Source: a virus. From it: a stretch of 64,000 nt of DNA. The notes under the pieces are model-generated. The model did not search any database. It saw only the letters and a program-made list of their open reading frames with translations, and was not told where the DNA came from. Each line of letters starts with the position of its first letter. Positions within the stretch are counted from its first letter, which is position 1. The position numbers and the translations under genes were made by a program. Below are positions 18,757-57,264 of this stretch, in pieces. The DNA lies in the IMG/VR virus record IMGVR_UViG_3300045988_125079, positions 32,001 to 96,000 of that record; one strand, given 5' to 3'.

Positions 18757-18775
18757 TTCAAATCCTCCTTAAATC

Positions 18776-18940: not shown

Positions 18941-18963
18941 ATCTATTCAACCCATTTTAGAAC

Positions 18964-21585: not shown

Positions 21586-21849
21586 TTACAATAACGAGTG
21601 ACAAGTTAGCCGCTTAGAATTCTCAAACATATCATCAGACCACAGCCAATTCATAGTATCTTCTTTAAGCTGATATCGGTCTTCTCTATATCCACCAATT
21701 GTCACAATTTTCCCGCAGAATTTTTTCATGTCTGAAACAAATCCAACTTTAATATCAGGGCATGGCCCAGATCGCATGCTATATATTTTCAGTTGTTCTA
21801 AATTCTGTTTTACACGCACCCTATCCCCAGGTTTGTAGCGATATTCCAT
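21586..21849 (-). CDS. small beta-barrel-like protein with CxSLL-COOH tail (LTCHSLL)
   Basis: MEYRYKPGDRVRV...WLWSDDMF...LTCHSLL. Start trimmed to the ATG aligned with paralogs. Confidence 0.7.
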   Translation of the reverse strand: MEYRYKPGDRVRVKQNLEQLKIYSMRSGPCPDIKVGFVSDMKKFCGKIVTIGGYREDRYQLKEDTMNWLWSDDMFENSKRLTCHSLL

Positions 21850-22022
21850 TATGATTCCCCATTCGTCATGTTCCTTCCACAATGAGGGCAGAACCGAGAT
21901 AAATGTTCATAATAATGTTGTGCTAAAATGTTATAGCGACAATCAGCGTCGTATCCACATTTTTCACAAAAATGCCATCCGTTTTCATCTTCCACCCATG
22001 TAGAAATATCGTTCTCGTTCAT
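21849..22022 (-). CDS. small zinc-ribbon protein (57 aa)
   Basis: Hand-translated MNENDISTWVED...CEKCG...CPHCG. Its stop overlaps the next ATG (TAATG). Confidence 0.45.
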   Translation of the reverse strand: MNENDISTWVEDENGWHFCEKCGYDADCRYNILAQHYYEHLSRFCPHCGRNMTNGES

Positions 22023-22031
22023 AGAATCTCC

Positions 22032-22298
22032 TTATAATAATGATTTGCAAGATAACAGATTTGCTAAGCCTAAAAACATCTCATCTGTCCATAGGATATT
22101 GTTTTGAGCTTCTTCTATGACATATCGATTTAAAACATACCCCATGACCGTCACAGTTTTCCCCTCAAAAGGTTTTCTTGCTTTAAAAGATCTTTTTACG
22201 ACAACTCCAAAATCTTGGGATAACATCTTATAATTATGACCTTCTTCGAAGCAATCTATCACGCGAACATGGTCTCCGGGTTTATATTGATATCCCAT
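22032..22298 (-). CDS. small beta-barrel-like protein with CxSLL-COOH tail (LSCKSLL)
   Basis: MGYQYKPGDHVRV...ILWTDEMF...LSCKSLL. AAAGGAGAG upstream. Confidence 0.7.
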   Translation of the reverse strand: MGYQYKPGDHVRVIDCFEEGHNYKMLSQDFGVVVKRSFKARKPFEGKTVTVMGYVLNRYVIEEAQNNILWTDEMFLGLANLLSCKSLL

Positions 22299-22308
22299 AA
22301 TCTCTCCT

Positions 22309-22575
22309 TTACAGCAGTGACCGACACGTAAAAGGATTAGCCAGACCGACAAACATATCATCAGACCAAATAGTGTCTTTATTTGACTCTTCGATCATGT
22401 ATCCGCCCAGTCTATATCCGGAAATCGTTACAACTTTCCCAGCAAGACGTTTTCTTGTCGGCAACGACACTCCGATTGTCAGAATGCTTTTACCAGAAGA
22501 CATATAATGGTTTTTCCCTGGTTCAAATTTATCTATCACGCGAACTCTATCCCCAAGCTTATATTTGTAATCCAA
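22309..22575 (-). CDS. small beta-barrel-like protein with CxSLL-COOH tail (FTCRSLL)
   Basis: (TTG)DYKYKLGDRVRV...TIWSDDMF...FTCRSLL. Confidence 0.65.
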   Translation of the reverse strand: MDYKYKLGDRVRVIDKFEPGKNHYMSSGKSILTIGVSLPTRKRLAGKVVTISGYRLGGYMIEESNKDTIWSDDMFVGLANPFTCRSLL

Positions 22576-24645
22576 TTAAATCACCACTTTCAGAACTCGC
22601 TCAGTAGCTCCCTGCACCTTGACAATGAAGGAGTCATGCTTTGTCTCAGAGAAACCAACGCCAGACAGCTGGTCATCGACAGACTGGACCGCCATCTGAG
22701 AACCGAGAGCTTCAAACACCCGCTTATGCTGCAGAAGTTCTGCTTTCAGAAATTCGTTGTAGAATCCGTTCGGCTTTTCAGGGTTGACACAATCCTTCAG
22801 CATAAAGAAGTAGTGACGGTTGCCGTTTCCGGTCTGCTCGTCCCAGTAGTTTGGAGAGTACATGGCCACAGAAACAGGAACGAACTGGTTGGAATTCACA
22901 CTCCAGATTTCGCGGGTGCTGGTAGAACTGGGCAGCTGCTCCTTGATAGAGAACTTGCCATCCTTCAGCGTGACCTTTGCCACGGCGACATTCTGACCCT
23001 GATGCAGCGGCTTATCGTAGTTAAACGAGTAGATGTTGCCATCGAACTCGATCTCAGCACGGAAACCGGTTTTTCCGCCACGACCAGCGAAACAATGAAC
23101 ATAGAAACTGTATTCGCCCTCCTTCATCTTTTTGATATCAGGCCAGGTGATGTTCTCGACTGCGACACGATTACGACCAGGCTGCATGATGTCAACATCC
23201 AGAACACCGCCCGTAGTGTAATTACGTTTTGCGCCAAAATAGATGTGGTTCTTATCGGGTTCAATGCAATGAGCATCCTCATCGTTTTCGTCCCACTCGC
23301 ACGACATATCATTCCACTGAATAGAGAAACGCAGAACGCCGTCGATTTTACCGCCAGCATTTTTGACGTTCTCCCGGATCTGGCTGTCAGTCACGTTACC
23401 CGTATATGCCCAACTAAAACCGTTCGCCCACTTGAACATAGATGGCGCAGCCTTATCCTGCGGCGCAATCAGAGACACCATATTCTTCTCGAAACGATTC
23501 TCCATGAACAGTTCCAGCCCAGTCGCAGTCGGAAGCACGTCCTTGATGAACTTGTCGATGCCGATTTCCTCTGCACGACCAAACTTCTTAGGATCAATCG
23601 CAACAGTCTTAGCCATTGCTTCAAACGGATTTGTAGCACCAGCAATACGAGGAGCAGCGTCACGATTACAGAACAGGATATTGTTGGCAGTGATATCGTC
23701 CAGAGTAGCAAACCGACGACCCAGACTGTTCATATAACCCAGCTCAGTGACGGTTTTCTGTGCATCCTCCAGCATCTTCTTGGTGAAAATCGCCTTGGGA
23801 CGCTTATAGTTAGCTGGTGCAACCACCTTTTCAAAAGCAGTCACAGCAGAATCCACATCCATACCTTCACTCAGATTAATAAGCAGAGTACCGATTGCAG
23901 TGTTACGAATACGAAGCTGTCCCATATCGCCCCATGCCGGTGCCAGCCAAACATAAGCGGCCTTGTTCTCAGCCGGAGTATTGTCATATTCAATCTTGTT
24001 AGTCTTAAATACCTTGACGGCGTTTTCAAATTCCTTACCGCGATACAAACTATTCTGTGCAATCAGCTCCAGAACAGTATCAACAGCATCCATGGTCAGT
24101 TCTTCCAGAGAACGCTTGTATACGTTTGCGGAATCACGCCACTGAGCCATCTTGGTAGCCACATCATCAGGCCGCACAACGAAACGCTGCGGAATCTTGA
24201 CTGCGAAATGATCCCAAGTACGCACATCCTTGTGGTTTTCATCGTACTCATAGTTCATCTCGGTGCCGAACATATTACCAGAACCGATCATATTGCGACT
24301 GACAAAGTACGGATTCACAATAGTGCGGCTCTTCACATAAGCATCCAGAGCGTCCACAACAGGCTGATACTTGGCAGACTTTGCATCGAAATTCCACACA
24401 GTAATCATTTTTCCATCATCAAACGCCACCAGCTTGCCGATATTCTTCACAAAACGGCGGCAGCAGGAACAATCATACTCACGGCGCTTACGGAACAGCT
24501 CATTCATACCGGCCGGGAAGCTGTCAAGATACAGATTGTACAGTTCATCCTCGTCTGCATCGGTGATAAACAGTGGATTCTCACCCTTCACCATCTCATT
24601 GAAGTGGTCCTGCAGAAGTGCGCGAAATTCCTTAAAATCAGACAT
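22576..24645 (-). CDS. large conserved hypothetical protein (689 aa)
   Basis: Long ORF with balanced composition. N-terminal REYDCSCCRRF cysteine motif. The 723-aa plus-strand ORF opposite it is judged a shadow. Confidence 0.75.
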   Translation of the reverse strand: MSDFKEFRALLQDHFNEMVKGENPLFITDADEDELYNLYLDSFPAGMNELFRKRREYDCSCCRRFVKNIGKLVAFDDGKMITVWNFDAKSAKYQPVVDALDAYVKSRTIVNPYFVSRNMIGSGNMFGTEMNYEYDENHKDVRTWDHFAVKIPQRFVVRPDDVATKMAQWRDSANVYKRSLEELTMDAVDTVLELIAQNSLYRGKEFENAVKVFKTNKIEYDNTPAENKAAYVWLAPAWGDMGQLRIRNTAIGTLLINLSEGMDVDSAVTAFEKVVAPANYKRPKAIFTKKMLEDAQKTVTELGYMNSLGRRFATLDDITANNILFCNRDAAPRIAGATNPFEAMAKTVAIDPKKFGRAEEIGIDKFIKDVLPTATGLELFMENRFEKNMVSLIAPQDKAAPSMFKWANGFSWAYTGNVTDSQIRENVKNAGGKIDGVLRFSIQWNDMSCEWDENDEDAHCIEPDKNHIYFGAKRNYTTGGVLDVDIMQPGRNRVAVENITWPDIKKMKEGEYSFYVHCFAGRGGKTGFRAEIEFDGNIYSFNYDKPLHQGQNVAVAKVTLKDGKFSIKEQLPSSTSTREIWSVNSNQFVPVSVAMYSPNYWDEQTGNGNRHYFFMLKDCVNPEKPNGFYNEFLKAELLQHKRVFEALGSQMAVQSVDDQLSGVGFSETKHDSFIVKVQGATERVLKVVI

Positions 24646-24934
24646 TGTTATTCTCCTTTGCTTTCATATAATTTTTGAGAAAAATACTCAAAAGTTCATC
24701 GGTGACTTCAAATCCTTGCCAGATTCGAGAGCTCTTATCTGTTCCAACTTGAGCATATAAATTTGTATTGCAATCAACCTCAATTGTAGAATCCGGATAT
24801 TTTTCAATCTCGTCATACTCATCAATTGCACTATTATTTATATAAAGATCAGCCTCATTTCTGCTATCAAAAAAACGAGGGAATTCGCACGATCCTTCAG
24901 AATCATATTCAAAAACACACCAGATCTTGTTCAT
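24638..24934 (-). CDS. hypothetical acidic protein (98 aa)
   Basis: ORF track. ATG start. Confidence 0.55.
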   Translation of the reverse strand: MNKIWCVFEYDSEGSCEFPRFFDSRNEADLYINNSAIDEYDEIEKYPDSTIEVDCNTNLYAQVGTDKSSRIWQGFEVTDELLSIFLKNYMKAKENNNV

Positions 24935-24943
24935 ATAACCACC

Positions 24944-25210
24944 TCATAATAATGACTTGCATCTAAACTGATGAGTTATTTTTTCAAACATTTCATCGCA
25001 CCAGAGCCAATTACACTCTTTTATTTTATACGATCCAAAAGATGAAATATGGTCAATATGAACTAATTTCCCACGCATTGCCATCATCTCTTCAATAACA
25101 TAATCGCTTTCCTGTTCAGCATATGGCCCAGATTTCATACAATAAAGATGACCCATACTTAAATCTTTACGGACACGAACTGTATCTCCAGGCTTATATA
25201 GATAATCCAT
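24944..25210 (-). CDS. small beta-barrel-like protein with CxSLL-COOH tail (FRCKSLL)
   Basis: MDYLYKPGDTVRV...WLWCDEMF...FRCKSLL. GAGGAG upstream. Confidence 0.7.
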   Translation of the reverse strand: MDYLYKPGDTVRVRKDLSMGHLYCMKSGPYAEQESDYVIEEMMAMRGKLVHIDHISSFGSYKIKECNWLWCDEMFEKITHQFRCKSLL

Positions 25211-25221
25211 ATTTTCACTCC

Positions 25222-25482
25222 TCACAAGAGAGACTTACATACAATTCGACCCTCCGGTTCAAACATTTCATCTGTCCAATGCCAATTAATTTCGTTTAAG
25301 AGATATTGACCGCATGAAAATCCCTTGATATGGACAAACTGACCACGGAATTTCATCATATCGTCATTGGTGCTATTTGAACCATACTTGTAATCAGGGC
25401 CAGATTTCATACGGTACGATTGTTTGGTACTCAAATCGGCTCGAACCCGAACTCTCTGTCCAACTTTATATTTGTAATCCAT
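25222..25482 (-). CDS. small beta-barrel-like protein with CxSLL-COOH tail (IVCKSLL)
   Basis: MDYKYKVGQRVRV...WHWTDEMF...IVCKSLL. Confidence 0.7.
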   Translation of the reverse strand: MDYKYKVGQRVRVRADLSTKQSYRMKSGPDYKYGSNSTNDDMMKFRGQFVHIKGFSCGQYLLNEINWHWTDEMFEPEGRIVCKSLL

Positions 25483-25490
25483 ATTTCACC

Positions 25491-25763
25491 TCAAAGAAGA
25501 GACTTGCATGTAAGTGGCGTTAACGGTTCAAACATTTCATCGACGAAATAATTGCACTTACCATCTTCGATGATCTTGTACTTTCCATTTGCTTTATGAG
25601 AAATATGAACTATCTTTCCTGCCCAATTTGTTCTAATGCTGTATGTAGCGTAAGTGCTTGCATATCCTGGACCAGACTGCATTTGATATACATGTCCACC
25701 TTCAAGATGCTGCTTTACTTTAACAGCCTGTCCATTCCTGTATTTATATTTACTTTTCGACAT
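25491..25763 (-). CDS. small beta-barrel-like protein with CxSLL-COOH tail (LTCKSLL)
   Basis: MSKSKYKYRNGQAVKV...YFVDEMF...LTCKSLL. Confidence 0.7.
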   Translation of the reverse strand: MSKSKYKYRNGQAVKVKQHLEGGHVYQMQSGPGYASTYATYSIRTNWAGKIVHISHKANGKYKIIEDGKCNYFVDEMFEPLTPLTCKSLL

Positions 25764-25783
25764 TTTCTTTTACCTCCCAAAAT

Positions 25784-25876
25784 TTACAAAAGACTCGTAC
25801 AGTAAATAAATTTTGCAGGCACGAGCATTCCATCACGTACTTGTACCGCATCGCCAACTTTATACATACACGCCAT
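25784..25876 (-). CDS. 30-aa mini-protein with CxSLL-COOH tail (IYCTSLL)
   Basis: Hand-translated MACMYKVGDAVQVRDGMLVPAKFIYCTSLL. Lies between the integrase stop and 25763. Below the ORF-track cutoff. Confidence 0.5.
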   Translation of the reverse strand: MACMYKVGDAVQVRDGMLVPAKFIYCTSLL

Positions 25877-25879
25877 TTT

Positions 25880-26686
25880 TCATTCTCCATCAAACCAATC
25901 AGAAACTCGATCCGACATCCTGTCCATCTTTTCCTGTGCAGCCTTACAATACCTCATTGTGATTCTTTCATCGCTATGATTCAATTTCATCTGGAGAAGC
26001 TGCAGAGTATTTCCTTCGTCTTGAGTCCCCTCTGCACTCTTTAGCGCTGCCATTGCATATGTTTTTCGCATTGTATGTGTAGACAATTCAATATCAAGGC
26101 CGCACATTTTACCGGCATTTTTCAGGATACCATATATCGATCGAACATTAAGCGAACCGCCCTTCTGGCTCTGGAATAAAAACACATCTCGTGAGACTTC
26201 AAAATGCTGCTCGTCGTAATATTCTTTCAAAACTTCGGCAGCCATTTTAGGAATTTTACAGATATTTCGCTTTCCTGTTTTCTGCTCAAAAACATCAAGA
26301 TGGCTCTTTACTTTACCATTTAGTGTATAAACATCTTCCGTCTTTAGTTTTACAAGATCGCTGCAACGAAGACCGACAGAACAACCAAGAATGAACAGCG
26401 TTTTATTCCTGATTCTATATCCGACCTTACCGTTTTTACCAAGATAATCTACTACTTTTTTGAACTCCTCTTTAGATTGAATCGGACTAGCCGGAGTCGG
26501 CTTCTTTCGTCCATCGCAAGTGTAAAGACTTGTTGTTTTCGTCTTCTTTTGTTTTTTTCGAGCAGCTGTTACGGCGTCACGAATCATCTGCTGCAATTCA
26601 TCTTCAGATAACGTAATATGAGCTTCGTCAGAAGAATTAGGAAATATAATCAGCTTATCTTTTTCTTTTACCGCTGCTTCTGCCAT
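25880..26686 (-). CDS. tyrosine recombinase / phage integrase family
   Basis: GLRCSDL (Arg I), HTMRKTY (HxxR) and LNHSDERITMRYC (His and catalytic Tyr). Confidence 0.8.
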   Translation of the reverse strand: MAEAAVKEKDKLIIFPNSSDEAHITLSEDELQQMIRDAVTAARKKQKKTKTTSLYTCDGRKKPTPASPIQSKEEFKKVVDYLGKNGKVGYRIRNKTLFILGCSVGLRCSDLVKLKTEDVYTLNGKVKSHLDVFEQKTGKRNICKIPKMAAEVLKEYYDEQHFEVSRDVFLFQSQKGGSLNVRSIYGILKNAGKMCGLDIELSTHTMRKTYAMAALKSAEGTQDEGNTLQLLQMKLNHSDERITMRYCKAAQEKMDRMSDRVSDWFDGE

Positions 26687-26713
26687 ATTGTAGCCTCCTT
26701 ATATGTGTTACAT

Positions 26714-26968
26714 TTACAGCAAACTTCGACACGAAAACGGTGCAGCACCTTCAAGCATTCCGTCCGACCAGAGATAGTTTCCATCATCTATATCGAGAAT
26801 ATAAAATCCACTTTTGTATCCTACGATTTTAGTAGTCATCCCTTCATAACTCGACATATGTAAACCAAGTCCGCAGTAATTCCCAGGACACGGTCCAGAT
26901 ACCATTGGAAGATTTTTTACCGGAGATTCTATTTTGACTTTTTGTCCAATTTTATATTTGTAATTCAT
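26714..26968 (-). CDS. small beta-barrel-like protein with CxSLL-COOH tail (FSCRSLL)
   Basis: MNYKYKIGQKVKI...YLWSDGML...FSCRSLL. Start trimmed to the ATG aligned with paralogs. Confidence 0.7.
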   Translation of the reverse strand: MNYKYKIGQKVKIESPVKNLPMVSGPCPGNYCGLGLHMSSYEGMTTKIVGYKSGFYILDIDDGNYLWSDGMLEGAAPFSCRSLL

Positions 26969-27034
26969 ACTATACCTTTCTTTCACACTCTCTTCTAATT
27001 GGTTGGAGGCCAGAGAGGAGTTCAAAGCGAGAGG

Positions 27035-27282
27035 ATTTAATTTGATTGGCGAAGCGATAAATTAAATACGAACGATTTGAATCCGCGCGTCCGCCGAAGG
27101 ATCAAGGGCGACTCCAGCTTCGCTGGGTCGCCTGCGATCCGCAGGTCGGACCTGGCTGAATGCCAATGCGGGTGGAAGATCCCCGATGCGCTCCTCCCGG
27201 AGGGCGAGCGAGGGGATCGACATGCCTTACCATTATCTCAACAGTTGGAATCTCCAGCTGCCTAAATTTCATTTAGTATTCA
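27035..27282 (+). ncRNA. GC-rich structured element, copy A (unclassified family)
   Basis: Nested perfect helices: ATTTAATTT/AAATTAAAT, GGCGAC/GTCGCC, CCTGCG/CGCAGG, GATCCCC/GGGGATC. The 3' module has hairpin CAGTTGG-AATCT-CCAGCTG, hairpin CTAAAT-TTC-ATTTAG, then TATTCA. The G-U pair forms only in plus sense. Strand and RNA-versus-DNA nature are uncertain. Confidence 0.4.
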
Positions 27283-27299
27283 AGAGAGATCAAACAGTT

Positions 27300-27662
27300 T
27301 TACTTTTCAACAATAGAATCCGAATCATCTATTTCTTCTGACTCTTCATCGAGAGCGTCATCTAGTTCCAATAAATACTGATTCAAGGCGTCTCGGCCAG
27401 CCTCAAGCATTGCTCGATGGATTTCAGGTTCTGCATCCTTTAAAAGATCCCCACAAAGTGCAAGATCCTCAGCTTCAAACCCCGTAGATTCCATATCCTT
27501 GATGGCATCCGCGACATCTGAAGGGGCCCAAAATACCATAGCACGATGTTCGTCTTCATCGAGGACTTCAACATCGTCATTTACCACTGCTCTCACATAA
27601 TCAGCGACATTTTCAAGCAGCTCAGGTGGCACAGAACCGTCACGACACATAATTTCAATCAT
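27300..27662 (-). CDS. highly acidic small protein (120 aa; DNA-mimic/anti-defence candidate)
   Basis: Asp/Glu-rich throughout (for example LDDALDEESEEIDDSDS). Start at MIEIMCRDG with GGAGGA upstream. Immediately downstream of the RT. Confidence 0.6.
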   Translation of the reverse strand: MIEIMCRDGSVPPELLENVADYVRAVVNDDVEVLDEDEHRAMVFWAPSDVADAIKDMESTGFEAEDLALCGDLLKDAEPEIHRAMLEAGRDALNQYLLELDDALDEESEEIDDSDSIVEK

Positions 27663-27675
27663 AAATCCTCCTTTG

Positions 27676-28908
27676 TTATGCGGCATCTTTTGGACGAAGA
27701 TCGTCTTTAATCATAGCCATCACATCAACATGGTATTTGTTGTTGGCTTTTGAAATCAACGCTTTGATTTTGTCTTTTTCTACCATTTTATAATAGCTGA
27801 TAAGACCATTAAGCTCCTGAACGTCTTCAATTGTCCAAGGAGCATTTTCCTTTTTACAGCGGATATAGTTGGACATCATAATCTTGAATGTCTTGATGTT
27901 ACGCCATCCAACCGTGATTTCATTGTTCTGATTCCACATCAAGCCGAGCACCCAGTTTTTACTCGAATGACGATTGCCGTAATGAGTTTTTTCTTCATTC
28001 AGAGTAAATGGAGCATGGATATACGCCAGAATATTTTTGATTACATCCTGCATCTCCATATAGTCAAAACTCAAATAACAACTAATCGTGATATCATCCG
28101 CATATCTTGTATAAGTAAAATCACGAGTAATGCCATCTTTCATTTTGAAACCATGACGAATTTTTCGACTCAGCAAATGATCAAATGGAATCATCATGAC
28201 ATTCGTAAGCCAAGGACTCAAGGGGCTTCCCTGCGGTAATCCATTGCGAAGAAAAGCAATCTTTAATGCATCACTCAACGCTTCATGGCCGCCGAATGGA
28301 TCTTGCATGATAAGAGCGAACGGATAAATCACACTCAACATTCCCATAACAAACTCTGGATTAGAGCTGGGGAAAAATCCGTGAAAGTCGAATTTTACAG
28401 ACCAGTTATTTTCATAAATAACCTGCTCTTTTTCTCCTGTTGTCGGGTTCGTTTTAGTCCGCACATGCCCTTCCTGATGTTTTTTCACAGCAGTCAAAGT
28501 AGACCGATGCGGAACATAAGCATGTGCCGCAGTATGATAGTCTGCAAGCATAAAGCTTTTTAACAACGTTTGCAGTTCGTTCAATGCGTCACTAAGGATT
28601 TTGTCTGGAGCATCAATTGGCCGCATGCCACCTGTTTTTTTGGGAATTTCATAGTGAGTATAGTGAACAGACATATCCGGTTCAGATTCGAGCTGTTCGT
28701 ATTTCTTATTAAACGCTTCGAGTTCTCGAATCATTCGGTTAATATCTGTCATGGCTCTCAAACGTGGGGTAAGTTCGTCTCTACAAACAGTCACAGTCGA
28801 AGTAACATCTTCTCGATATTTCAATTTCTCAGACTCGATAATGCCTGCAAGAATCTCATCGATTGTGATCTGTCTCGTTTTAGGGGCTGCTTTGTATGTA
28901 ATATACAT
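27676..28908 (-). CDS. reverse transcriptase (retron/Abi/DRT-like, stand-alone RT domain)
   Basis: RT motifs KKTGGMRPIDAP (1), HAYVPHRS (2a), KFDFHGFFPS (3), GLPQGSPLSPWLTN (4), YTRYADDITIS (5) and KNWVLGL (7). No endonuclease, maturase or Cas domains. Confidence 0.85.
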   Translation of the reverse strand: MYITYKAAPKTRQITIDEILAGIIESEKLKYREDVTSTVTVCRDELTPRLRAMTDINRMIRELEAFNKKYEQLESEPDMSVHYTHYEIPKKTGGMRPIDAPDKILSDALNELQTLLKSFMLADYHTAAHAYVPHRSTLTAVKKHQEGHVRTKTNPTTGEKEQVIYENNWSVKFDFHGFFPSSNPEFVMGMLSVIYPFALIMQDPFGGHEALSDALKIAFLRNGLPQGSPLSPWLTNVMMIPFDHLLSRKIRHGFKMKDGITRDFTYTRYADDITISCYLSFDYMEMQDVIKNILAYIHAPFTLNEEKTHYGNRHSSKNWVLGLMWNQNNEITVGWRNIKTFKIMMSNYIRCKKENAPWTIEDVQELNGLISYYKMVEKDKIKALISKANNKYHVDVMAMIKDDLRPKDAA

Positions 28909-28929
28909 ATTATCTTCCTCTTATCGTGA

Positions 28930-29165
28930 TCTAAATAGGTCTCAGCTCATTCCAAGCCTGATCGCAGTGCGGATCTTGACTATGTTGTTGAGCGATACAT
29001 CGTAAAATTTCACCCTGCAGTGACGCTGATGACGTCGACTACCTGGAGGATGGCCGTTGCCTCCGCGGTACCTCCATGGCCATCGGCGGCTCGCGGGGCA
29101 CCTCCCTCGTTCTACCTTTGCGAACCAATCGGATCTCCGGTTGGACTGTGGTTAACAGTAATTCA
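28930..29165 (+). ncRNA. GC-rich structured element, copy B (same family as A and C)
   Basis: Helices GATGGCC/GGCCATC and CCGCG/CGCGG. The 3' module is CTACCTTTGCGAA, hairpin CCAATCGG-ATCT-CCGGTTGG, hairpin CTGT-GGTTA-ACAG, then TAATTCA. Confidence 0.4.
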
Positions 29166-29185
29166 TCACGATTTTATTTCAAATT

Positions 29186-29860
29186 TTAACTTGCAATAAC
29201 ACTATGCTGATAAGGATCAACAACAATCATCTTGTTGACTTTATTCTTCCCCATAGCAAATCCGATGAAATTCGTAACAGCCTGACAGCAGATTTCACGA
29301 ACTGTCGGAGCAAGTCCCTGAACAACGCCACATGCAGAAACGGGCGTACTTGCCGTGGCTTCTTCGTGAGTGAAATCCATAGAATTTTTGAGATTTTCCT
29401 TCATGGATTCATCCATCCAATCAGCCGCCCAACACTGAGCGTCGTAAAGACCGGTTCGGATATCAAACACGCCCTTAATATTGGGATTATATTTGTTCTT
29501 CTCCATGAAATCTTTTCGAATTTCAATGTTGTCAACAGCCAGGAAAACATATCCCTGAACCTGTTCACCATGCCAACCATTGGGTTTGATGATGATATCG
29601 TCCTTCGCGTCAGGATTAATCATGCAGATGAGATTTGCAACAGCTTCAACCTTCGGATGACCAATATCCTGCTGGAAAAACATTTGGTTCACGATATTCT
29701 TCGATTCAACGATGTCCATATCCCAAAGCGTAAAATTAGTGAGGCCGTATCGAGCCAACAGCTCAGCCACAGTCGAACCAACAGAACCACAGCCAATGAT
29801 ATGCACCTGGCCACGAATTTCTTTAGGATTGAAAATCATCTCAATCTTGCTCAGATTCAT
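29186..29860 (-). CDS. ThiF/MoeB/E1-like adenylyltransferase (short, no obvious catalytic-Cys domain)
   Basis: HIIGCGSVGSTVAELLARYGL is a Rossmann GxGxxG motif at the N-terminus. 224 aa. Confidence 0.75.
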   Translation of the reverse strand: MNLSKIEMIFNPKEIRGQVHIIGCGSVGSTVAELLARYGLTNFTLWDMDIVESKNIVNQMFFQQDIGHPKVEAVANLICMINPDAKDDIIIKPNGWHGEQVQGYVFLAVDNIEIRKDFMEKNKYNPNIKGVFDIRTGLYDAQCWAADWMDESMKENLKNSMDFTHEEATASTPVSACGVVQGLAPTVREICCQAVTNFIGFAMGKNKVNKMIVVDPYQHSVIAS

Positions 29861-29877
29861 TTGTTTATCCTTTCTTT

Positions 29878-30840
29878 TTAATCCTGAAATGCATCAATGT
29901 CGTTATAATACGGCCAGCAACTCGAATTACCGACTGCTTCCAATTCTTCAGGATGCTCTTCGTAATACTTGGCGAGATTGCTTTTTGCCGGCACTTTCGG
30001 AGCGGCGCTGCCAGTTACCGTCTTCTTCGACTCTTCTTTTTTTGTCCCGACCAACGGGGTTTTCGGGTACGTAACGGTGGAGCCGTATACCTTACTTGCA
30101 CCCGCGCCTCCTGCAGAATATCCTCCATTGCTTCCAATTGCGTTTGCGCTGTAATTGGTATTTCCGGTCCAATTCCCTGTCGCGCCATATACAGGTGTTG
30201 TGGCAATTTTGTTCTTAACAATCTGGTCTGCGTTTTCGAGAAATCGAGAAGAATCAAAATCACCAACGGTGACATTCACATCCTCTCCTTCATAGATAAC
30301 GTTTGCCTTCAGATCAATAACCCGAACATTATACTCACGCCGCTTGTTCCAAATCATAAAGATTTCATAGCTATCCATCGGCATAGTATCAACGAAACGC
30401 CACTGGTCTTCCATATCTGTAGCACTCGGGGTGACTCCCATATTGACATGAGAATGACCTTGAAAATGCAGACTGTTAAAATCCTCATCGGGCAGCTTCG
30501 CGTACCACATAGAATACTCTCCCCAATCGGTATTCACGGTCGCTCCCGTGACAGTCTGGGGATAAAGCAGAATCTTAGTAATCTGAAAGTGAGTATCATC
30601 GATTCGATTCACCGTGCCACACCACGCGACTTCGGACGAGAAGTGGTTAATCAGAGCGAACATCTGATGATATGCTTCGTAGGTGAAATTCACTGTGATT
30701 GCATTCTTCTGCTTTACTGCAGGAAATTCTGCGCTATATGTAAACTTATCACTGCGGATATAATTCATAGCCATCAGCTGTTCATAAAGCTTCTGTGCTG
30801 CGTTCTTTGCGTACTCCTGTGAAATCTTAATCGGCTTCAT
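29878..30840 (-). CDS. JAB/MPN (JAMM) metallopeptidase with Gly/Ser-rich C-terminal extension
   Basis: HFQGHSHVNMGVTPSATD matches HxH-x7-S-xx-D. A low-complexity tail follows. Confidence 0.75.
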   Translation of the reverse strand: MKPIKISQEYAKNAAQKLYEQLMAMNYIRSDKFTYSAEFPAVKQKNAITVNFTYEAYHQMFALINHFSSEVAWCGTVNRIDDTHFQITKILLYPQTVTGATVNTDWGEYSMWYAKLPDEDFNSLHFQGHSHVNMGVTPSATDMEDQWRFVDTMPMDSYEIFMIWNKRREYNVRVIDLKANVIYEGEDVNVTVGDFDSSRFLENADQIVKNKIATTPVYGATGNWTGNTNYSANAIGSNGGYSAGGAGASKVYGSTVTYPKTPLVGTKKEESKKTVTGSAAPKVPAKSNLAKYYEEHPEELEAVGNSSCWPYYNDIDAFQD

Positions 30841-30854
30841 TTATATCTCCCCTT

Positions 30855-32327
30855 TCAAGCAGCCGCCGTTTCCTTTTCTTTCTTTAAGATTTCGAACACC
30901 TCTGCGACTGTATAAAGATTACCAGCATCGTCCTCAAGATATTTCTTGGTAGAAATGGTTCGTTCATTGAACAGATCATGCATCAATTCGGAAACCACCG
31001 TAGAATCACCCCAGTTCAGGTAAGAACTGGAGCAGATAATAGTAGTAAGAGTCCCAATGAAATCATGATTCTGAGATAACGATTCAAAGGTCGCTTCATA
31101 GCCACCGTAGCAAGCATGGCGATCAATGTGCGGCTGACGGATACGATTTTCCATCATCTCCGGATGATCTTCCATATCACACTGAGTGACAACACGAACA
31201 CGATCATCAGAATTCACGCGCCATTCACAATATGTGCGGATCTTAAAGCGATGTTCTTTCCAAATAGCGCAGAAGAATTCTTTCGTTTCCTCAAAAGAGT
31301 ACGGGCTCTTCTGATAGATGTAGTTTCGTGCATCCCGTTTGTTCTCGACACTGTGCCGGAAAGCGCCTTCATCACAGTCATTCAAAAAGCCGGTGTAACC
31401 AACATACAGGTTGTCATCGCTCTTTCGGAGAAAGCTCAGAACTTTATTCGCTTTCAGATAATTTACAATAGCTGCCTCGTCTTCGTCTGTACAGCAAGCA
31501 CGATTACGAATTGCTTCAAGACGAATCTGCGCATCGTCCAGCTTGCTCCGATACTGGCGAATCTGATCGAAAGTATCCGTGATCCGACGTTCATAGCTGC
31601 GGATTTCTTCTTCTCCGCGACTAATAATCGAGTCATAATTGGCACTGCAGAATCCCTTCAGGCTTGCAGCCAATTTCTTTCCATAGAAATCGCCAGCGTC
31701 ATAGATCTTCTGCATGGCATCGCAGAACTTGGCATCCTCTTGATTGTATAAAAACTGGATAATGGCCTTTTCTTCTTCTGTAATCGGCACTTTCTTAAAG
31801 CACCAAGGAGTCAGACGGGGAAAACAACTCGCCGCCATATGCATAGCCTGCATAATTTTTTGACGGCCAACAAAGATGATAGTTCCCTTCTTTTTCTCAT
31901 TCTGGTAAACCGTTACATCACCAGCCTTATCAATGTACTGTGAGACATCATCAAGTTTCTTCCAGCCGAGCTTCTTATAATCCTCGTTATATTCTTCGCT
32001 CTTTTTCATGATTTCTGTAGCATTATCGGTATCGAGGATATTAACCAGAACACCATAACGGAAAGTCTTAAAAGGACTGTCTTCGTGAACAAACGTCTCT
32101 TTCGTCAGTTCGCTCTCCTCAGAGCTAAAATAACTCGTGATAACCTGCAACTGAATGCGGCCGCCGATCTCATTCATCGCCTTCAAACGTTCCTCGTTCA
32201 GAAACATTCTCATAACAGCCAGCAGCGTGTTGTCTTTCACTTCGGTATCGTTCTGAGAAAGGATATTCTGATAAGCATCGTCACACTCATTTGTGCCAAG
32301 CTTAACAATAATCGGGTTGAAAGCCAT
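30855..32327 (-). CDS. hypothetical protein (490 aa) in the ThiF-JAB cassette
   Basis: Long ORF. AGGAGGAAAAATT precedes the ATG. The segment QPHIDRHACYGG might be an E2-like His...Cys site, but this cannot be judged by eye. Confidence 0.7.
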   Translation of the reverse strand: MAFNPIIVKLGTNECDDAYQNILSQNDTEVKDNTLLAVMRMFLNEERLKAMNEIGGRIQLQVITSYFSSEESELTKETFVHEDSPFKTFRYGVLVNILDTDNATEIMKKSEEYNEDYKKLGWKKLDDVSQYIDKAGDVTVYQNEKKKGTIIFVGRQKIMQAMHMAASCFPRLTPWCFKKVPITEEEKAIIQFLYNQEDAKFCDAMQKIYDAGDFYGKKLAASLKGFCSANYDSIISRGEEEIRSYERRITDTFDQIRQYRSKLDDAQIRLEAIRNRACCTDEDEAAIVNYLKANKVLSFLRKSDDNLYVGYTGFLNDCDEGAFRHSVENKRDARNYIYQKSPYSFEETKEFFCAIWKEHRFKIRTYCEWRVNSDDRVRVVTQCDMEDHPEMMENRIRQPHIDRHACYGGYEATFESLSQNHDFIGTLTTIICSSSYLNWGDSTVVSELMHDLFNERTISTKKYLEDDAGNLYTVAEVFEILKKEKETAAA

Positions 32328-32378
32328 AATTTTTCCTCCTATATGTAATTTTTATTTCAGGAGCCCAGATACTGGACA

Positions 32379-32408
32379 TATATAAGGCAGACTTTAACCG
32401 GCCTGCCA
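32379..32408 (-). terminator. rho-independent terminator candidate after the 76-aa gene
   Basis: Minus-sense GGCAG-gccggttaaagt-CTGCC followed by TTATATAT. Confidence 0.45.
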
Positions 32409-32483
32409 GCGGCTGCAATGCTTAGAATATCGTTGTAACCAATAACGATTTACTTTTTATTTGCGATTCTTTTCGTTAATCGT

Positions 32484-32714
32484 TTAACGGGCGTTATCAT
32501 GCTTCGCGACGACCGTGATATAGCATGCATCACCGACGCCCAGAGCAGTCAGAGACATGTTCAGCTTGTCGGGGGTCAGGATCGTACCATCCAGAGTAGC
32601 CTGAGCAGCGCTGAAATCAACGCCATTCTCAGTCAGGATCTCACGGGGAGTCTTAGTAGAAGCAGCGGGAACGGTGTTACGGTTGCCATTGGTAACGAGA
32701 GTAACGAAAGTCAT
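32484..32714 (-). CDS. ThiS/MoaD-like beta-grasp (ubiquitin-like) protein lacking a Gly-Gly end
   Basis: VTLVTNGNRNTV...TPREIL...GVD...ATLDGTIL...LGVGDACYITVVAKHDNAR parallels the ThiS/MoaD pattern (vNGe..v...tv.eLl....vavNg.iv....L.dGD.veiv). GC-rich codons. Confidence 0.55.
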   Translation of the reverse strand: MTFVTLVTNGNRNTVPAASTKTPREILTENGVDFSAAQATLDGTILTPDKLNMSLTALGVGDACYITVVAKHDNAR

Positions 32715-33502: not shown

Positions 33503-33730
33503 TTATAATAGCGACTTGCAACAAATCTGATCGGAACATGGTTCCCATAGCCAATTAGGACACCATGAAATATGTATTTCACCATGTGAAAATGGATCGA
33601 TCATATCAACAATAATCTGTCCTTCTTCGTCAACAGCCACAATTTTCCCTCGCTTATGATAGTTGGTATCAGTGGCCGAGCATTCATTTCCAATTCTTAC
33701 CATCTGTCCGATACGAAATTTATATTCCAT
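33503..33730 (-). CDS. small protein with CxSLL-COOH tail (ICCKSLL)
   Basis: MEYKFRIGQMVRI...WLWEPCSDQICCKSLL. Confidence 0.7.
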   Translation of the reverse strand: MEYKFRIGQMVRIGNECSATDTNYHKRGKIVAVDEEGQIIVDMIDPFSHGEIHISWCPNWLWEPCSDQICCKSLL

Positions 33731-33739: not shown

Positions 33740-33985
33740 TCATAGCAAAGACTTACATTCAAACGAAGGGCAGCGATCAAAATAGTCTGGTGATTTTCGC
33801 CATCGATACCCTTTCTTTAGCGGCGGATAACCAACAAGTGACACTTCATCTTCTAAAAGTTCCACAGTGAGTGTTCCATTAGGTGCAATGTCGACTACTT
33901 TGCCAAGTTTTCTTTGTGCCTCATCGCACCACATGTCATCAATATCAGTCGTTCTGACAAGATCCCCAATTTTAAATTTAGTCAT
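33740..33985 (-). CDS. small protein with CxSLL-COOH tail (FECKSLL)
   Basis: MTKFKIGDLVRT...DRCPSFECKSLL. Confidence 0.7.
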   Translation of the reverse strand: MTKFKIGDLVRTTDIDDMWCDEAQRKLGKVVDIAPNGTLTVELLEDEVSLVGYPPLKKGYRWRKSPDYFDRCPSFECKSLL

Positions 33986-33997: not shown

Positions 33998-34234
33998 TCA
34001 CAACAACGATTTACAAACAAATGGCTTTGTTTTTACCTTCACCCAATTATCAGCAGTGAGCCACCATTCATAACCAGCCCCTACGTCTTCTCCGCTGCCG
34101 ATATCGGGCATTGCCTCAAGCATTTCAACAACGATATAGTCAACGTCTACTGCCTTCACGATTCCTTTCTTCCCGACATTCCCAGGAGCCCACATATGGG
34201 GAGCCGAAGCGACAATATCACCAACCTTAACCAT
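33998..34234 (-). CDS. small protein with CxSLL-COOH tail (FVCKSLL)
   Basis: MVKVGDIVAS...VKTKPFVCKSLL. Confidence 0.7.
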   Translation of the reverse strand: MVKVGDIVASAPHMWAPGNVGKKGIVKAVDVDYIVVEMLEAMPDIGSGEDVGAGYEWWLTADNWVKVKTKPFVCKSLL

Positions 34235-42066: not shown

Positions 42067-42321
42067 TTACAGAAGCGACTTGCAATAAAGCGGCTCTTTA
42101 TGACGTAGAAATTCGTATTGTTCACTATATAAACAATCTTCAATATATCCGTCTTTAAATTTCATATGTGGACACCGATCGTTATAATCCTCATCCAAAT
42201 CATATTTGTCCCAGCCAAGAAATTCACATTCTTGTTCATTATAATAATCAAGATTTCTACAATGAAGTCTGAATATTGAACCTGGAATCCAAATTTCTTC
42301 TTGCGCCGTTACTTTCGTCAT
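42067..42321 (-). CDS. small protein with CxSLL-COOH tail (LYCKSLL)
   Basis: MTKVTAQEEIW...RHKEPLYCKSLL. The body is unlike the YKxGD family. Confidence 0.65.
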   Translation of the reverse strand: MTKVTAQEEIWIPGSIFRLHCRNLDYYNEQECEFLGWDKYDLDEDYNDRCPHMKFKDGYIEDCLYSEQYEFLRHKEPLYCKSLL

Positions 42322-56790: not shown

Positions 56791-57264
56791 ATGTATAAAA
56801 TATTCGCTCCACGCGGCGGTGGCCGCACCTATCAAATATGTAAATACGCGATTGAAAACGACTGCGACATTATTGTGCCCGCTCTGAATTCTATCCAACA
56901 CATTATAACGATCATAATGCAAATCTGCTATGATTCTAATGGTGAATATGAATATATTGATGACAATAACAATTTGCGTGATATCAAAATTAAAACACCA
57001 AACGACACGATTGTGATCCACGTTTTTGACGCTGATAGTTTCCGACATGCACAATTTGGCCCCGCCAGAAGAAAACCCGTGGTGATCGACGATATTGATG
57101 AATGTATGAAGCGTATTATAAATTCCGACTTGATTGAAGCTATTTCTATAGCTACATATGACCCATCTGATGTCGCACTTCATCCTAAAATCACAGATGC
57201 AGATGATCCAGCTATAGGAAGACCGGCACTGCAACCGCAACTGACCTGTAGGAGTTTACTATGA
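56791..57264 (+). CDS. protein with P-loop-like N-terminus and CxSLL-COOH tail (LTCRSLL)
   Basis: APRGGGRT...VVIDDID...LTCRSLL. AGGAGG upstream. Confidence 0.65.
   Translation: MYKIFAPRGGGRTYQICKYAIENDCDIIVPALNSIQHIITIIMQICYDSNGEYEYIDDNNNLRDIKIKTPNDTIVIHVFDADSFRHAQFGPARRKPVVIDDIDECMKRIINSDLIEAISIATYDPSDVALHPKITDADDPAIGRPALQPQLTCRSLL

What the first reader, a model, noticed from the sequence alone, without database searches (positions are those of the whole stretch)
21586..26968. Portable C-terminal tag: hydrophobic-x-C-x-S-L-L-COOH on 18 small proteins (cluster 1, eight members)
Eight CDS in this stretch end with the same 5-residue unit:
- 21586 LTCHSLL
- 22032 LSCKSLL
- 22309 FTCRSLL
- 24944 FRCKSLL
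- 25222 IVCKSLL
- 25491 LTCKSLL
- 25784 IYCTSLL
- 26714 FSCRSLL
Ten more CDS elsewhere in the window do the same (33503, 33740, 33998, 42067, 56791, 57261, 57602, 58048, 58317, 59112). In all 18, Cys is at -5, Ser at -3, Leu-Leu precedes the stop, and L/F/I sits at -7.

Ser is encoded by TCA/TCT/TCG in some genes and AGT/AGC in others, and Leu by TTA/TTG/CTN. The conservation is therefore at the protein level, not a DNA repeat.

The bodies are not all alike. Most in this cluster are YK(P/L/V)GDxVRV...WxW(S/T)D(E/D)MF small beta-barrel-like proteins. Other carriers have P-loop-like, coiled-coil or unrelated bodies. The tail behaves like a portable tag, and I know of no described phage tag of this form.

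Hypotheses (inference only):
- Cys plus four residues to the free carboxylate has the geometry of agr-type autoinducing-peptide thiolactone rings (from memory, staphylococcal AIP-III ends CDFLL and AIP-II ends CSSLF). The window also encodes a short ThiF-type adenylating enzyme and a JAB peptidase (29186-30840) that could activate or trim a C-terminus.
- S-x-hydrophobic-COOH is a class-I PDZ ligand, for example for Ctp/Prc/HtrA proteases.
- The tail could be a degron or a virion/compartment targeting signal.
Basis: partly seen in the sequence, partly recalled or inferred. Interest (0 to 1): 0.9.

Follow-up and report, generated by a model that had tools for sequence, protein, structure and literature searches.

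The report
Phage-wide C-terminal protein address tag
A family of large gut phages ends about one in six of its small accessory proteins with the same seven-residue tail (hydrophobic-x-Cys/Phe-x-Ser-Leu-Leu), in three versions never mixed within one phage, which points to an undescribed tag read by a partner the phage itself encodes.

Summary
Eighteen ORFs in the window end in [L/F/I]-x-C-x-S-L-L-stop, against 0.03 expected by chance. Synonymous codons vary at every position, so selection acts on the protein.

The tail is portable:
- It sits on 8 or more unrelated sequence families. Eleven carriers are SH3-like barrels; seven are ORFans.
- It is a low-confidence, unstructured appendix in an AlphaFold model.
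- The SH3 body occurs elsewhere without it.

The same tail is present in about 230 loci from related SPbeta-like gut phage contigs of 100-150 kb. It comes in three dialects:
- T1: Phi-x-C-[KRH]-SLL
- T2: E-C-x-C-[ED]-SLL
- T3: Phi-x-F-x-SLL

No contig mixes dialects. All 50 contigs sampled at two distant clusters agree, although flanking genes cross dialects at 97-100% identity.

Because T3 has Phe in place of Cys, the thiolactone idea is disfavoured. ThiF and JAB have their own ubiquitin-like substrate gene next door.

Best reading: a short linear docking tag that co-evolves with a phage-encoded reader. Candidate jobs are capsid loading, recruitment to the Ubl/E1/JAB module, and timed proteolysis. 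I found no prior description.

The parts
21586..21849 (-). Tail-bearing CDS, SH3-like group A, ends LTCHSLL
   Evidence: AF2 model
22032..22298 (-). Tail-bearing CDS, SH3-like group A, ends LSCKSLL
22309..22575 (-). Tail-bearing CDS, SH3-like group A (TTG start), ends FTCRSLL
24944..25210 (-). Tail-bearing CDS, SH3-like group A, ends FRCKSLL
   Evidence: close homologs keep the tail
25222..25482 (-). Tail-bearing CDS, SH3-like group A, ends IVCKSLL
25491..25763 (-). Tail-bearing CDS, SH3-like group A, ends LTCKSLL
25784..25873 (-). 29-aa mini ORF: first SH3 strand fused in frame to the tail (IYCTSLL). Deletion derivative of an 87-aa gene that is intact in L002.
26714..26968 (-). Tail-bearing CDS, SH3-like group A, ends FSCRSLL
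33503..33730 (-). Tail-bearing CDS, SH3-like group B, ends ICCKSLL
33740..33985 (-). Tail-bearing CDS, SH3-like group B, ends FECKSLL
33998..34234 (-). Tail-bearing CDS, SH3-like group B, ends FVCKSLL
42067..42321 (-). Isolated tail-bearing CDS, ORFan body, ends LYCKSLL
56791..57264 (+). Tail-bearing CDS, 157-aa ORFan, ends LTCRSLL. Orthologs about 50% identical in T2 phages carry T2 tails.
57261..57605 (+). Tail-bearing CDS, 114-aa ORFan, ends FVCRSLL
57602..58021 (+). Tail-bearing CDS, 139-aa ORFan, ends LVCYSLL
58048..58320 (+). Tail-bearing CDS, 90-aa ORFan, ends LICRSLL
58317..59075 (+). Tail-bearing CDS, ends FVCKSLL. It is 252 aa if the in-frame TAG at 58347 is read through, or 204 aa from GTG 58461. 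Orthologs in T2 phages carry T2 tails.
59112..59300 (+). Tail-bearing CDS, 62 aa, ends FRCESLL
25880..32714 (-). It holds a Ubl-like 76-aa gene (32484-32714), a 490-aa protein (30855-32327), a protein with a JAB motif (29878-30840), ThiF (29186-29860), a retron-like RT (27676-28908), an acidic 120-aa protein (27300-27662), tail gene 26714-26968, and a tyrosine recombinase (25880-26686).

Best explanation
The tail is a short linear docking tag: Phi(-7)-x-[Cys/Phe](-5)-x-Ser-Leu-Leu-COOH, carried on a flexible linker.

This family of SPbeta-like gut phages appends it to about 20 or more small accessory proteins with unrelated bodies. All of them can then be captured by one reader that binds an extended C-terminal peptide with its free carboxylate.

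Each phage keeps all its tails in one of three mutually exclusive dialects, although the phages recombine freely elsewhere.

**What is shown.**
- Selection on the tail at the protein level.
- Portability across bodies.
- An exposed, disordered position.
- The three dialects and their genome-wide coherence.

**What is inferred.**
- That a single reader exists.
- That the phage encodes it.

My ranking, all inference:**
1. About 0.25: loading of the tagged proteins into the procapsid, so that a diversified arsenal is co-injected with the DNA.
2. About 0.25: recruitment to, or modification by, the adjacent Ubl/490-aa/JAB/ThiF module.
3. About 0.15: timed proteolysis through a phage adaptor.
4. Remainder: another hub.
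For: **Enrichment and protein-level selection.**
- 18 tails are seen against 0.03 expected.
- Synonymous codons vary at every tail position in T1, T2 and T3, including the dialect-specific positions.

**Portability.**
- The window carriers fall into group A (8), group B (3) and 7 unrelated sequences.
- Across all loci, 686 distinct tail-bearing products form about 20 families. At least 6 of these families carry two or three dialects.

**Exposure.**
- In the AF2 model the SH3 barrel has pLDDT of about 90. The last 10 or so residues have pLDDT 59 and no secondary structure.

**The body exists without the tag.**
- 3463 representative homologs were found, many of them tail-less tandem arrays or multidomain proteins.
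- L066 carries the body without the tail.

**Dialects.**
- T1 and T2 were seen.
- T3 was seen.
- Per-locus tally: 87 T1-only, 142 T2-only, 3 T3-only. The 6 'mixed' flags come from two weak F.S[LIV][LIV] ORF ends each.

**Coherence despite mosaicism.**
- All 50 contigs sampled at both clusters are concordant (contig names).
- The window has T1 tails, yet its RNAP allele is 99-100% identical to that of T2 phages. The breakpoint lies right after the last tail gene.
- NAMPT and the PRTase have 0 dialect-discriminating columns. The neighbouring module has 17-49%.

**Distribution.**
- The nearest cultured relative, Thomasclavelia phage TR-TP2, has no recurrent C-terminal tag and no annotated ThiF, JAB or Ubl module.
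Against: - No reader was identified.
- No PDZ, clamp, protease or TPR domain was found among the window proteins scanned.
- The 490-aa module protein has no structural match.
- The charge and co-variation analyses were uninformative.
- Dialects are monophyletic on the module tree. There were therefore only about 2-3 dialect switches, and co-inheritance cannot be cleanly separated from co-evolution.
- The hosts are unknown. A host-encoded reader that differs between host lineages is not formally excluded.
Confidence: 0.6

Rival explanations
1. Capsid or virion cargo-loading peptide. The tail binds the inner face of the HK97-type procapsid or a head protein, so the tagged small proteins are packaged and injected with the DNA. 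This is a specific version of the best explanation.
For: **T1 versus T2 in the late region.** Strictly fixed differences are confined to a few genes:
- the putative major capsid protein (YonB-like, 15 columns, all within residues 193-306);
- the adjacent 177-aa protein (21 of 180 columns);
- a 71-aa protein next to the portal.

Neighbouring genes (terminase, the scaffold-like p169, tail genes) cross dialects at 94-100% identity.

**T3.** The T3 phage L201 has private alleles of the same head genes.

**General features.**
- The tag is C-terminal, short and on a flexible linker, like encapsulin cargo peptides (from memory).
- The carriers are small, 62-252 aa.
Against: - The tagged genes lie in accessory or early-looking regions, not in the late operon.
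- No further tail genes lie within the first 10 kb of the late region.
- The capsid association rests on few independent lineages and may be linkage.
- In T3 most late genes are private, so that test is not specific.
- The identity of the capsid protein is inferred from gene order only.
Confidence: 0.25
2. The tails are handles for the adjacent Ubl/490-aa/JAB/ThiF machinery. Either they are acceptor or recruitment motifs for Ubl conjugation, or their C-termini are adenylated and conjugated as in CBASS Cap2/CD-NTase, with JAB reversing or trimming.
For: - Synteny is conserved in every lineage: tail arrays flank the module on both sides.
- The module is the most strongly dialect-partitioned block.
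- ThiF is a bona fide E1-like protein: Pfam 3e-20, with PDB hits to UBA5, MccB and Cap2.
- JAB carries an intact HSHx7SxxD motif (read from the sequence).
- The tag and the module are both absent from TR-TP2.
- Ser(-3) is invariant in all dialects.
Against: - The operon has its own Ubl-like substrate. It ends in a conserved K[HML]DNA plus a variable extension and gives weak profile hits to SAMP2 and MoaD-like proteins.
- The tails end in Leu-Leu, not a small residue.
- Cluster 2 and the gene at 42 kb lie far from the module.
- Twenty or more different 'modifiers' would be unprecedented.
Confidence: 0.25
3. C-terminal degron. The tail delivers early accessory proteins to a protease, either a host Clp/Lon/PDZ protease reached through a phage adaptor or a phage protease, for timed removal.
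For: - The tail is an exposed hydrophobic C-terminus.
- S-L-L-COOH fits the class-I PDZ ligand pattern [S/T]-x-Phi-COOH (established knowledge).
- The phage also encodes a tmRNA with its own tag, which suggests it interferes with C-terminal-tag proteolysis.
Against: - No protease, PDZ or adaptor domain was detected in the window.
- A degron read directly by a host protease does not explain three mutually exclusive dialects among phages that recombine with each other.
- The tail does not end in the AA/LAA typical of ssrA-type tags.
Confidence: 0.15
4. Ligand of a host hub such as the DnaN sliding clamp. x-S-L-L resembles the last three positions of the clamp-binding motif QL[SD]L[FL].
For: - The core S-L-L, with hydrophobic residues at -5 and -7, is invariant across dialects.
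- Clamp-binding motifs often lie at C-termini, for example the MutS motif QMSLL (from memory).
Against: - Gln at position 1 and Leu at position 2 of the clamp motif are not matched.
- Dialect-specific residues at -4, -7 and -8 are under selection in each lineage, and a shared host pocket would not impose that.
- It is not obvious why about 20 small ORFans should bind a clamp.
Confidence: 0.08
5. agr-type five-residue thiolactone: Cys(-5) to the C-terminal carboxylate, activated by ThiF.
For: - In T1 and T2 the spacing from Cys to the carboxylate is Cys plus four residues, the ring size of the AIP thiolactone (established knowledge of agr peptides).
- An adenylating enzyme is encoded nearby.
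Against: - T3 phages have Phe at -5 in every tail, with the same synteny and module.
- The carriers are folded proteins of 60-250 aa, not secreted pro-peptides.
- ThiF has a cognate Ubl-like substrate.
Confidence: 0.04
6. Plain paralogy, or a DNA-level element such as a recombination site or translational-coupling signal that happens to translate as CxSLL.
For: - Eleven of the 18 carriers are SH3-like paralogs in arrays.
- Stop codons are usually followed at once by the next gene's ribosome-binding site.
- A tyrosine recombinase sits inside the array.
Against: - The codons are highly diverse: both Ser codon boxes and six Leu codons are used.
- The tail is also found on 7 or more unrelated bodies.
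- Orthologous bodies switch dialect.
- The tail lies outside the SH3 fold.
Confidence: 0.02

Closest known systems
Encapsulin cargo-loading peptides and the phage T4 capsid-targeting sequence
   Same: - A short portable peptide on a flexible linker directs unrelated proteins to one HK97-fold shell.
- Encapsulin peptides are C-terminal and have a small hydrophobic core (from memory).
   Different: - No sequence match was tested or claimed.
- The T4 signal is N-terminal and is cleaved.
- Here a capsid partner is only hinted at by allele association.
- About 20 cargo families and three private dialects are not known for either system.
Class-I PDZ ligands / tail-specific protease substrates
   Same: An extreme C-terminal [S/T]-x-Phi-COOH with a free carboxylate, and further specificity from upstream residues at -3 and -4.
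   Different: - No PDZ protein was found in the window.
- Ser is essentially invariant and Thr is almost never seen.
- The hydrophobic or Cys residues required at -5 and -7 extend the motif to 7-8 residues.
CBASS type II Cap2/Cap3 acting on CD-NTase C-termini; Bil and Bub bacterial ubiquitination-like systems (PMC11601596, PMC10557695)
   Same: - An E1-like adenylating enzyme and a JAB peptidase are encoded side by side.
- In CBASS the handle is a disordered C-terminal tail on a non-Ubl protein.
   Different: - The module here has its own Ubl-like gene.
- The tails end in Leu-Leu.
- The module is phage-encoded.
- No E2 was recognised.
- A link to the tails is not shown.
Peptide pherotypes: arbitrium AimP/AimR of SPbeta-like phages, agr, Phr/Rap
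   Same: - Short C-terminal peptide 'codes' fall into discrete, mutually exclusive specificity groups among otherwise recombining relatives.
- The phage family is SPbeta-like.
   Different: - Those systems use one secreted pro-peptide per genome, with a signal sequence.
- Here about 20 cytosolic folded proteins per genome carry the code.
- No RRNPP or TPR receptor was found.
Beta-clamp-binding motif QL[SD]L[FL] and the C-terminal clamp-binding tails of T4 gp43/gp33/gp55
   Same: - A portable C-terminal hydrophobic pentapeptide shared by unrelated proteins that dock on one hub.
- S-L-L matches positions 3-5 of the motif.
   Different: - Positions 1-2 do not match.
- No phage clamp was seen.
- The number and kind of carriers are different.

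Membership tests
agr-type AIP thiolactone precursors | Cys located four residues before the ring-closing carboxyl | tested here: not met
   Met in T1 and T2. In the T3 dialect, however, Phe replaces Cys in all 23 tails of L164 and L201.
agr-type AIP thiolactone precursors | Small pro-peptide with an amphipathic leader and a C-terminal recognition tail removed by AgrB | tested here: not met
   - The motif is the extreme C-terminus of folded proteins of 62-252 aa.
- No AgrB-like hit was found among the scanned proteins.
Ubiquitin-like modifiers (E1/JAB substrates) | Beta-grasp fold of the body | tested here: not met
   - The AF2 model of 21586-21849 is an SH3-like barrel.
- The other carriers are unrelated ORFans.
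Ubiquitin-like modifiers (E1/JAB substrates) | Conserved small C-terminal residue(s), often exposed by removal of a variable extension | tested here: not met
   - The tails end in Leu-Leu with no extension.
- The neighbouring 76-aa ORF does show this feature: K[HML]DNA followed by R, LAA, TGMN, VK or VVM.
Class-I PDZ ligand | [S/T]-x-hydrophobic-COOH at the extreme C-terminus | tested here: met
   S-L-L-stop in 100% of 485 distinct tails selected with the pattern [CF].SLL$. The tabulated positions -10 to -4 are what that table informs on.
Class-I PDZ ligand | A PDZ-domain reader | tested here: inconclusive
   - No PDZ hit was found among about 60 window proteins scanned against Pfam.
- The rest of the genome and the host were not searched.
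ssrA-type / ClpX C-terminal degrons | C-terminal LAA/AA-COOH or a basic MuA-like C-motif | tested here: not met
   The tails end in SLL. Basic residues occur upstream only in T1, and T2 is acidic.
Beta-clamp-binding motif | Q-L-[S/D]-L-[F/L] pentapeptide | tested here: inconclusive
   - Positions 3-5 match (S-L-L).
- Position 1 is C or F, not Q.
- Position 2 is charged or polar, not L.
- Binding was not testable.
Encapsulin-type cargo-loading peptide | C-terminal short peptide on a flexible linker that binds the lumen of an HK97-fold shell | tested here: inconclusive
   - Position and disorder are met.
- The shell partner is only suggested by dialect-linked alleles of the putative capsid gene block.
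CaaX prenylation box | Cys at -4 followed by two aliphatic residues and X | tested here: not met
   Cys is at -5, and it is absent in T3.
DNA repeat / recombination site (e.g. integron attC-like) | Conservation at the nucleotide level, with inverted repeats after the stop codon | tested here: not met
   - Codons are diverse at every position.
- The intergenic gaps are about 10 nt and hold only a ribosome-binding site.

The most novel reading that the evidence does not exclude
The tail is a phage-private 'postal code'. It is a C-terminal cargo-loading peptide that docks on the inside of the phage's own HK97-type procapsid, in the manner of encapsulins. A fast-evolving arsenal of about 20-30 small effector proteins would then be packaged and co-injected with the DNA.

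The three dialects would be privatised packaging codes that stop co-infecting relatives from loading each other's cargo.
Probability: 0.25. Interest if true: 0.9.

Novelty: new variant of a known kind. Interest (0 to 1): 0.8.

Why it matters
**If the tag is what it appears to be.** About one gene in six in the accessory regions of an abundant family of human-gut phages would be wired to a single, still unknown reader by a seven-residue code.

**Consequences.**
- It would give one experimental handle on about 20 ORFan families.
- It would be a natural example of tag and reader co-diversifying into mutually exclusive 'private' dialects among recombining viruses.
- It might yield a compact, orthogonal set of three tags for targeting proteins in Firmicutes phage systems, for example to load cargo into virions.

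**Annotation.** The tail flags these small proteins as one functional class that annotation pipelines miss. None has a Pfam domain.

Tried and rejected
- I counted dialect-discriminating and charge-reversing columns in each conserved module protein and compared net charge by dialect.
- The result was too noisy: every module protein splits by dialect.

**Structure.**
- Structure and fold search of the 490-aa module protein gave a confident model but no PDB match, and only one uncharacterised viral match.
- Foldseek of the SH3 model gave only weak similarity to SH3 and Mind-bomb repeats.

**Domain and sequence searches.**
- Pfam, PHROGs, NCBIfam and PDB-sequence searches of all non-SH3 carriers and of 17 carrier families found nothing.

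**Host.**
- The first genome-collection scan found nothing.
- The second returned only two contigs, binned into a Peptococcaceae MAG, which is unreliable.

**Relatives.**
- INPHARED holds only two short unannotated relatives.
- The nearest cultured phage lacks the tag.
- A search with a T3 protein in IMG/VR found nothing. T3 context came from Logan contigs and, by luck, from locus L201.

**Literature.**
- Searches for a described phage C-terminal tag, capsid-targeting motif or phage Ubl/E1/JAB operon returned nothing matching.

**Hypotheses rejected.**
- TAG recoding as the cause of the tails: the tails end at TAA or TGA.
- DNA repeat.
- Integron-like cassettes.
- DGR: the RT is retron-like.


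Full report
**1. The observation**

All have L, F or I at -7.

From amino-acid frequencies, 0.03 of the 1126 ORF ends should match. Shuffling the last 30 residues 2000 times never gave more than 3 matches. C.SLL occurs only once away from a C-terminus. SLL is by far the commonest terminal tripeptide, with 20 cases against 5 or fewer for any other.

Codons differ freely at every tail position:
- Ser uses AGY 7 times and TCN 11 times.
- Leu uses six codons.
- Cys uses TGT 11 times and TGC 7 times.

The conservation is therefore at the protein level. The stop is TAA or TGA and is usually followed directly by the next gene's ribosome-binding site.

Three details needed refining:
- 25784-25873 is a 29-aa ORF. 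It is an in-frame deletion of an 87-aa SH3 gene that is intact in relatives, and it keeps both the first strand and the tail.
- 22309 starts at a TTG.
- 58317-59075 contains an in-frame TAG at 58347. The alternative start is GTG 58461.

**2. The carriers**

BLAST of the bodies without their tails gives one group of eight (21586 to 26714), a distant group of three (33503-34234), and seven sequences unrelated to these and to each other.

Groups A and B give only sub-threshold Pfam hits, to Mind-bomb and UBE2O SH3 domains. An AlphaFold model of 21586-21849 is a confident small SH3-like barrel with mean pLDDT 87. The last ten or so residues, which include the tail, drop to pLDDT 59 and have no secondary structure. 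Foldseek finds only weak SH3 and Mib-repeat similarity.

The seven other carriers, and 17 carrier families collected from relatives, have no Pfam, PHROG, NCBIfam or PDB-sequence match.

An exhaustive profile search with the tail-less SH3 bodies finds 3463 representative proteins. Many are tandem arrays of 2-17 copies or multidomain proteins without the tail. One unrelated low-GC phage has the domain as the N-terminus of a 178-aa protein.

**3. The phage**

The window carries:
- 12 tRNA genes (11 from ARAGORN, plus one further Rfam match at 2009-2076), including a CTA suppressor, and a tmRNA;
- an NAD-salvage gene set;
- a retron-like reverse transcriptase;
- a YonO-type single-subunit RNA polymerase (Pfam RdRP).

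Just beyond the window lie YonG-, YonD- and YonB-type late genes, the terminase and the portal. It is an SPbeta-like phage of 100-150 kb, known only from human-gut metagenomes. The host is unknown. Two contigs sit in a Peptococcaceae MAG bin.

**4. Relatives and dialects**

Related contigs all have the tail, but in three versions:

| Dialect | Pattern | Notes |
|---|---|---|
| T1 | [K][P]-Phi-x-C-[K/R/H]-S-L-L | The window's version |
| T2 | [N/D/T/S]-E-C-x-C-[E/D]-S-L-L | |
| T3 | (G)-Phi-x-F-x-S-L-L | No Cys required |

T3 has 16 tails within 18 kb of contig L164 and seven consecutive ones in L201.

Among 485 distinct tails, S-L-L is invariant, -5 is Cys or Phe, and -7 is hydrophobic or Cys. 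This set was selected with the pattern [CF].SLL$, so the invariance of -5 and of S-L-L holds by construction within it. The looser patterns show the rare SLV, SIL and SLI endings. Synonymous codons vary at the dialect-specific positions too.

No locus mixes dialects: 87 are T1-only, 142 T2-only and 3 T3-only. The six 'mixed' flags rest on two weak non-canonical ORF ends each.

For 50 contigs, both the SH3 region and the cluster next to the RNA polymerase about 30 kb away were sampled. All 50 agree: 15 are T1 and 35 are T2 (contig names).

Body families shared between phages carry whichever dialect the phage uses. Examples are the 56791 and 58317 families and both SH3 groups.

**5. Mosaicism**

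The genomes exchange genes across dialects.
- The window's RNA polymerase is 99-100% identical to that of T2 phages, but only 70% identical to that of the T1 contig which otherwise matches the window at 97-100%. The breakpoint lies between 59759 and 59780, just after the last tail gene.
- NAMPT and the PRTase-like protein have no dialect-discriminating column.
- The AAA ATPase has two alleles that are unlinked to dialect.

The block from the tyrosine recombinase to the 490-aa protein behaves differently. It splits completely by dialect, with 17-49% discriminating columns: 42 of 244 for ThiF, 23-35% for the four larger proteins, and 59 of 120 residues for the 120-aa protein. Its four or more deep lineages are only 40-75% identical to each other.

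Each dialect is held by selection on protein sequence, in lineages that evidently co-infect and recombine. The simplest inference is a reader encoded by the phage that has co-diversified with the tag. This is inference. With only two or three dialect switches, co-inheritance cannot be fully separated from co-evolution.

**6. ThiF and JAB**

ThiF is a real E1-like protein (Pfam 3e-20). Its best PDB sequence matches are UBA5, TcdA, MccB and Cap2. The neighbouring protein has an intact JAMM motif (HSHx7SxxD) but no family hit.

Immediately upstream lies a 76-aa ORF (32484-32714). Its orthologs in all lineages end in a conserved K[H/M/L]DNA followed by 1-4 variable residues: R, LAA, TGMN, VK or VVM. 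A profile of it hits SAMP2 and a MoaD-like protein weakly in the PDB, at E 0.04-0.05.

This is the signature of a ubiquitin-like precursor that is processed by a JAB peptidase and activated by an E1. The operon is 145 aa, Ubl, 490 aa, JAB, ThiF, and it therefore has its own substrate. Together with Phe at -5 in T3, this removes the basis for the thiolactone hypothesis.

It does not exclude that the tails are acceptor or recruitment motifs for this machinery. The conserved synteny argues for some link: tail arrays lie on both sides of the module in every lineage, and both tag and module are absent from the nearest cultured relative.

**7. A capsid link?**

In 62 late-region loci typed for dialect, strictly fixed T1/T2 differences occur in:
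- the tail genes;
- two small neighbouring genes (p75 and p113), plus an 86-aa gene that has a T2 ortholog in only five loci;
- a 71-aa gene next to the portal;
- a contiguous block of about 1 kb made of the C-terminal half of the putative major capsid protein (YonB-like, 331 aa, 15 columns) and the next gene (177 aa, 21 of 180 columns).

The portal and the YonD-like 544-aa protein show a few fixed columns as well (about 1% each).

Terminase, the scaffold-like p169 and downstream genes cross dialects at 94-100% identity.

The T3 phage L201 has private alleles of the same head genes. It also has private alleles of most other late genes.

This is compatible with the tail being a capsid-loading signal. 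It rests on few independent lineages and on an identification of the capsid protein by gene order only. I treat it as a lead.

**8. Comparison with known systems**

The tail works like a C-terminal short linear docking motif. I tested it against the following families:

| Family | Result |
|---|---|
| AIP precursors | Fails |
| Ubiquitin-like modifiers | Fails |
| ssrA/ClpX degrons | Fails |
| CaaX box | Fails |
| DNA repeats | Fails |
| Class-I PDZ ligand | Meets the formal pattern, but no PDZ reader was found |
| Beta-clamp-binding motif | Matches only positions 3-5 |
| Encapsulin cargo peptides | Shares position and flexibility |

The discrete dialects resemble peptide pherotypes such as arbitrium. 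Here, though, the code sits on about 20 cytosolic proteins per genome.

Literature searches found no description of such a tag.

**9. Verdict**

The tag is portable, under protein-level selection, family-wide, and present in three mutually exclusive dialects.

The generic reading as a tag or targeting signal is supported.

I rank procapsid loading and recruitment to the Ubl module about equal (about 0.25 each), ahead of a degron (0.15) and a host hub (0.08).

Noticed in passing
window 29186-33272 (- strand): A complete ubiquitin-like operon in a phage: 145-aa ORF (32835-33272), 76-aa Ubl-like ORF (32484-32714), 490-aa protein of unknown fold, a protein with a JAMM motif, and a short ThiF/E1. 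Orthologs of the Ubl end in a conserved K[HML]DNA followed by 1-4 variable residues, as in a precursor processed by a JAB peptidase. No E2 was recognised.
   Followed up: partly
window 26969-29185 (- strand): A retron-like reverse transcriptase (27676-28908; best PDB matches are the Ec83, Ec78 and Ec86 RTs). It is flanked by GC-rich, moderately structured spacers: 28909-29185 (z -1.8) and 26969-27299 (z -2.7). These could encode its non-coding RNA. An acidic 120-aa ORF follows at 27300-27662.
   Followed up: partly
window 38351-38737 (- strand): A phage-encoded tmRNA (Rfam 92 bits) with the predicted tag peptide ANNNSYRCAA, which contains a Cys.
   Followed up: no
window 20-95 (- strand) and 58347-58349: A suppressor tRNA with anticodon CTA. 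TAG ends only 3 of 71 confidently called genes. Tail gene 58317-59075 has an in-frame TAG that is GAA in one ortholog, but another ortholog has an extra TAA nearby. TAG read-through is therefore possible but not shown.
   Followed up: partly
window 46628-46708 (- strand): A type-P5 twister ribozyme above the Rfam gathering score (45.9 bits against 37.6).
   Followed up: no
window 14016-20062 (- strand): An NAD-salvage, counter-defence-like gene set: isochorismatase/nicotinamidase, NAD synthase, a Macro-like protein, NAMPT and a PRTase-like protein. It is nearly identical (85-99%) across all dialect groups.
   Followed up: no
window 59759-62696: A recombination breakpoint lies right after the last tail gene. 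From 59780 on, including the YonO-like RNA polymerase (60624-62696), the window is 92-100% identical to T2-dialect phages. It is only 45-70% identical to the T1 contig that matches it elsewhere.
   Followed up: partly
window 25880-26686 (- strand): A tyrosine recombinase (Phage_integrase, PHROG integrase 1.6e-43) embedded in the middle of the SH3-tail gene array in every lineage. Its role there is unexplained.
   Followed up: no
window 22576-24645 (- strand): A 689-aa DUF8224 protein conserved at 50-55% identity in Bastille-like Bacillus phages and in hundreds of Salmonella, Klebsiella and other phages. It sits between the SH3-tail genes. Its function is unknown.
   Followed up: no
locus L176 15750-17348 (related contig; beyond the window end): The C-terminal half of the putative major capsid protein and the adjacent 177-aa gene form a block of about 1 kb. 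Its alleles never cross tail dialects, while the flanking late genes do.
   Followed up: partly
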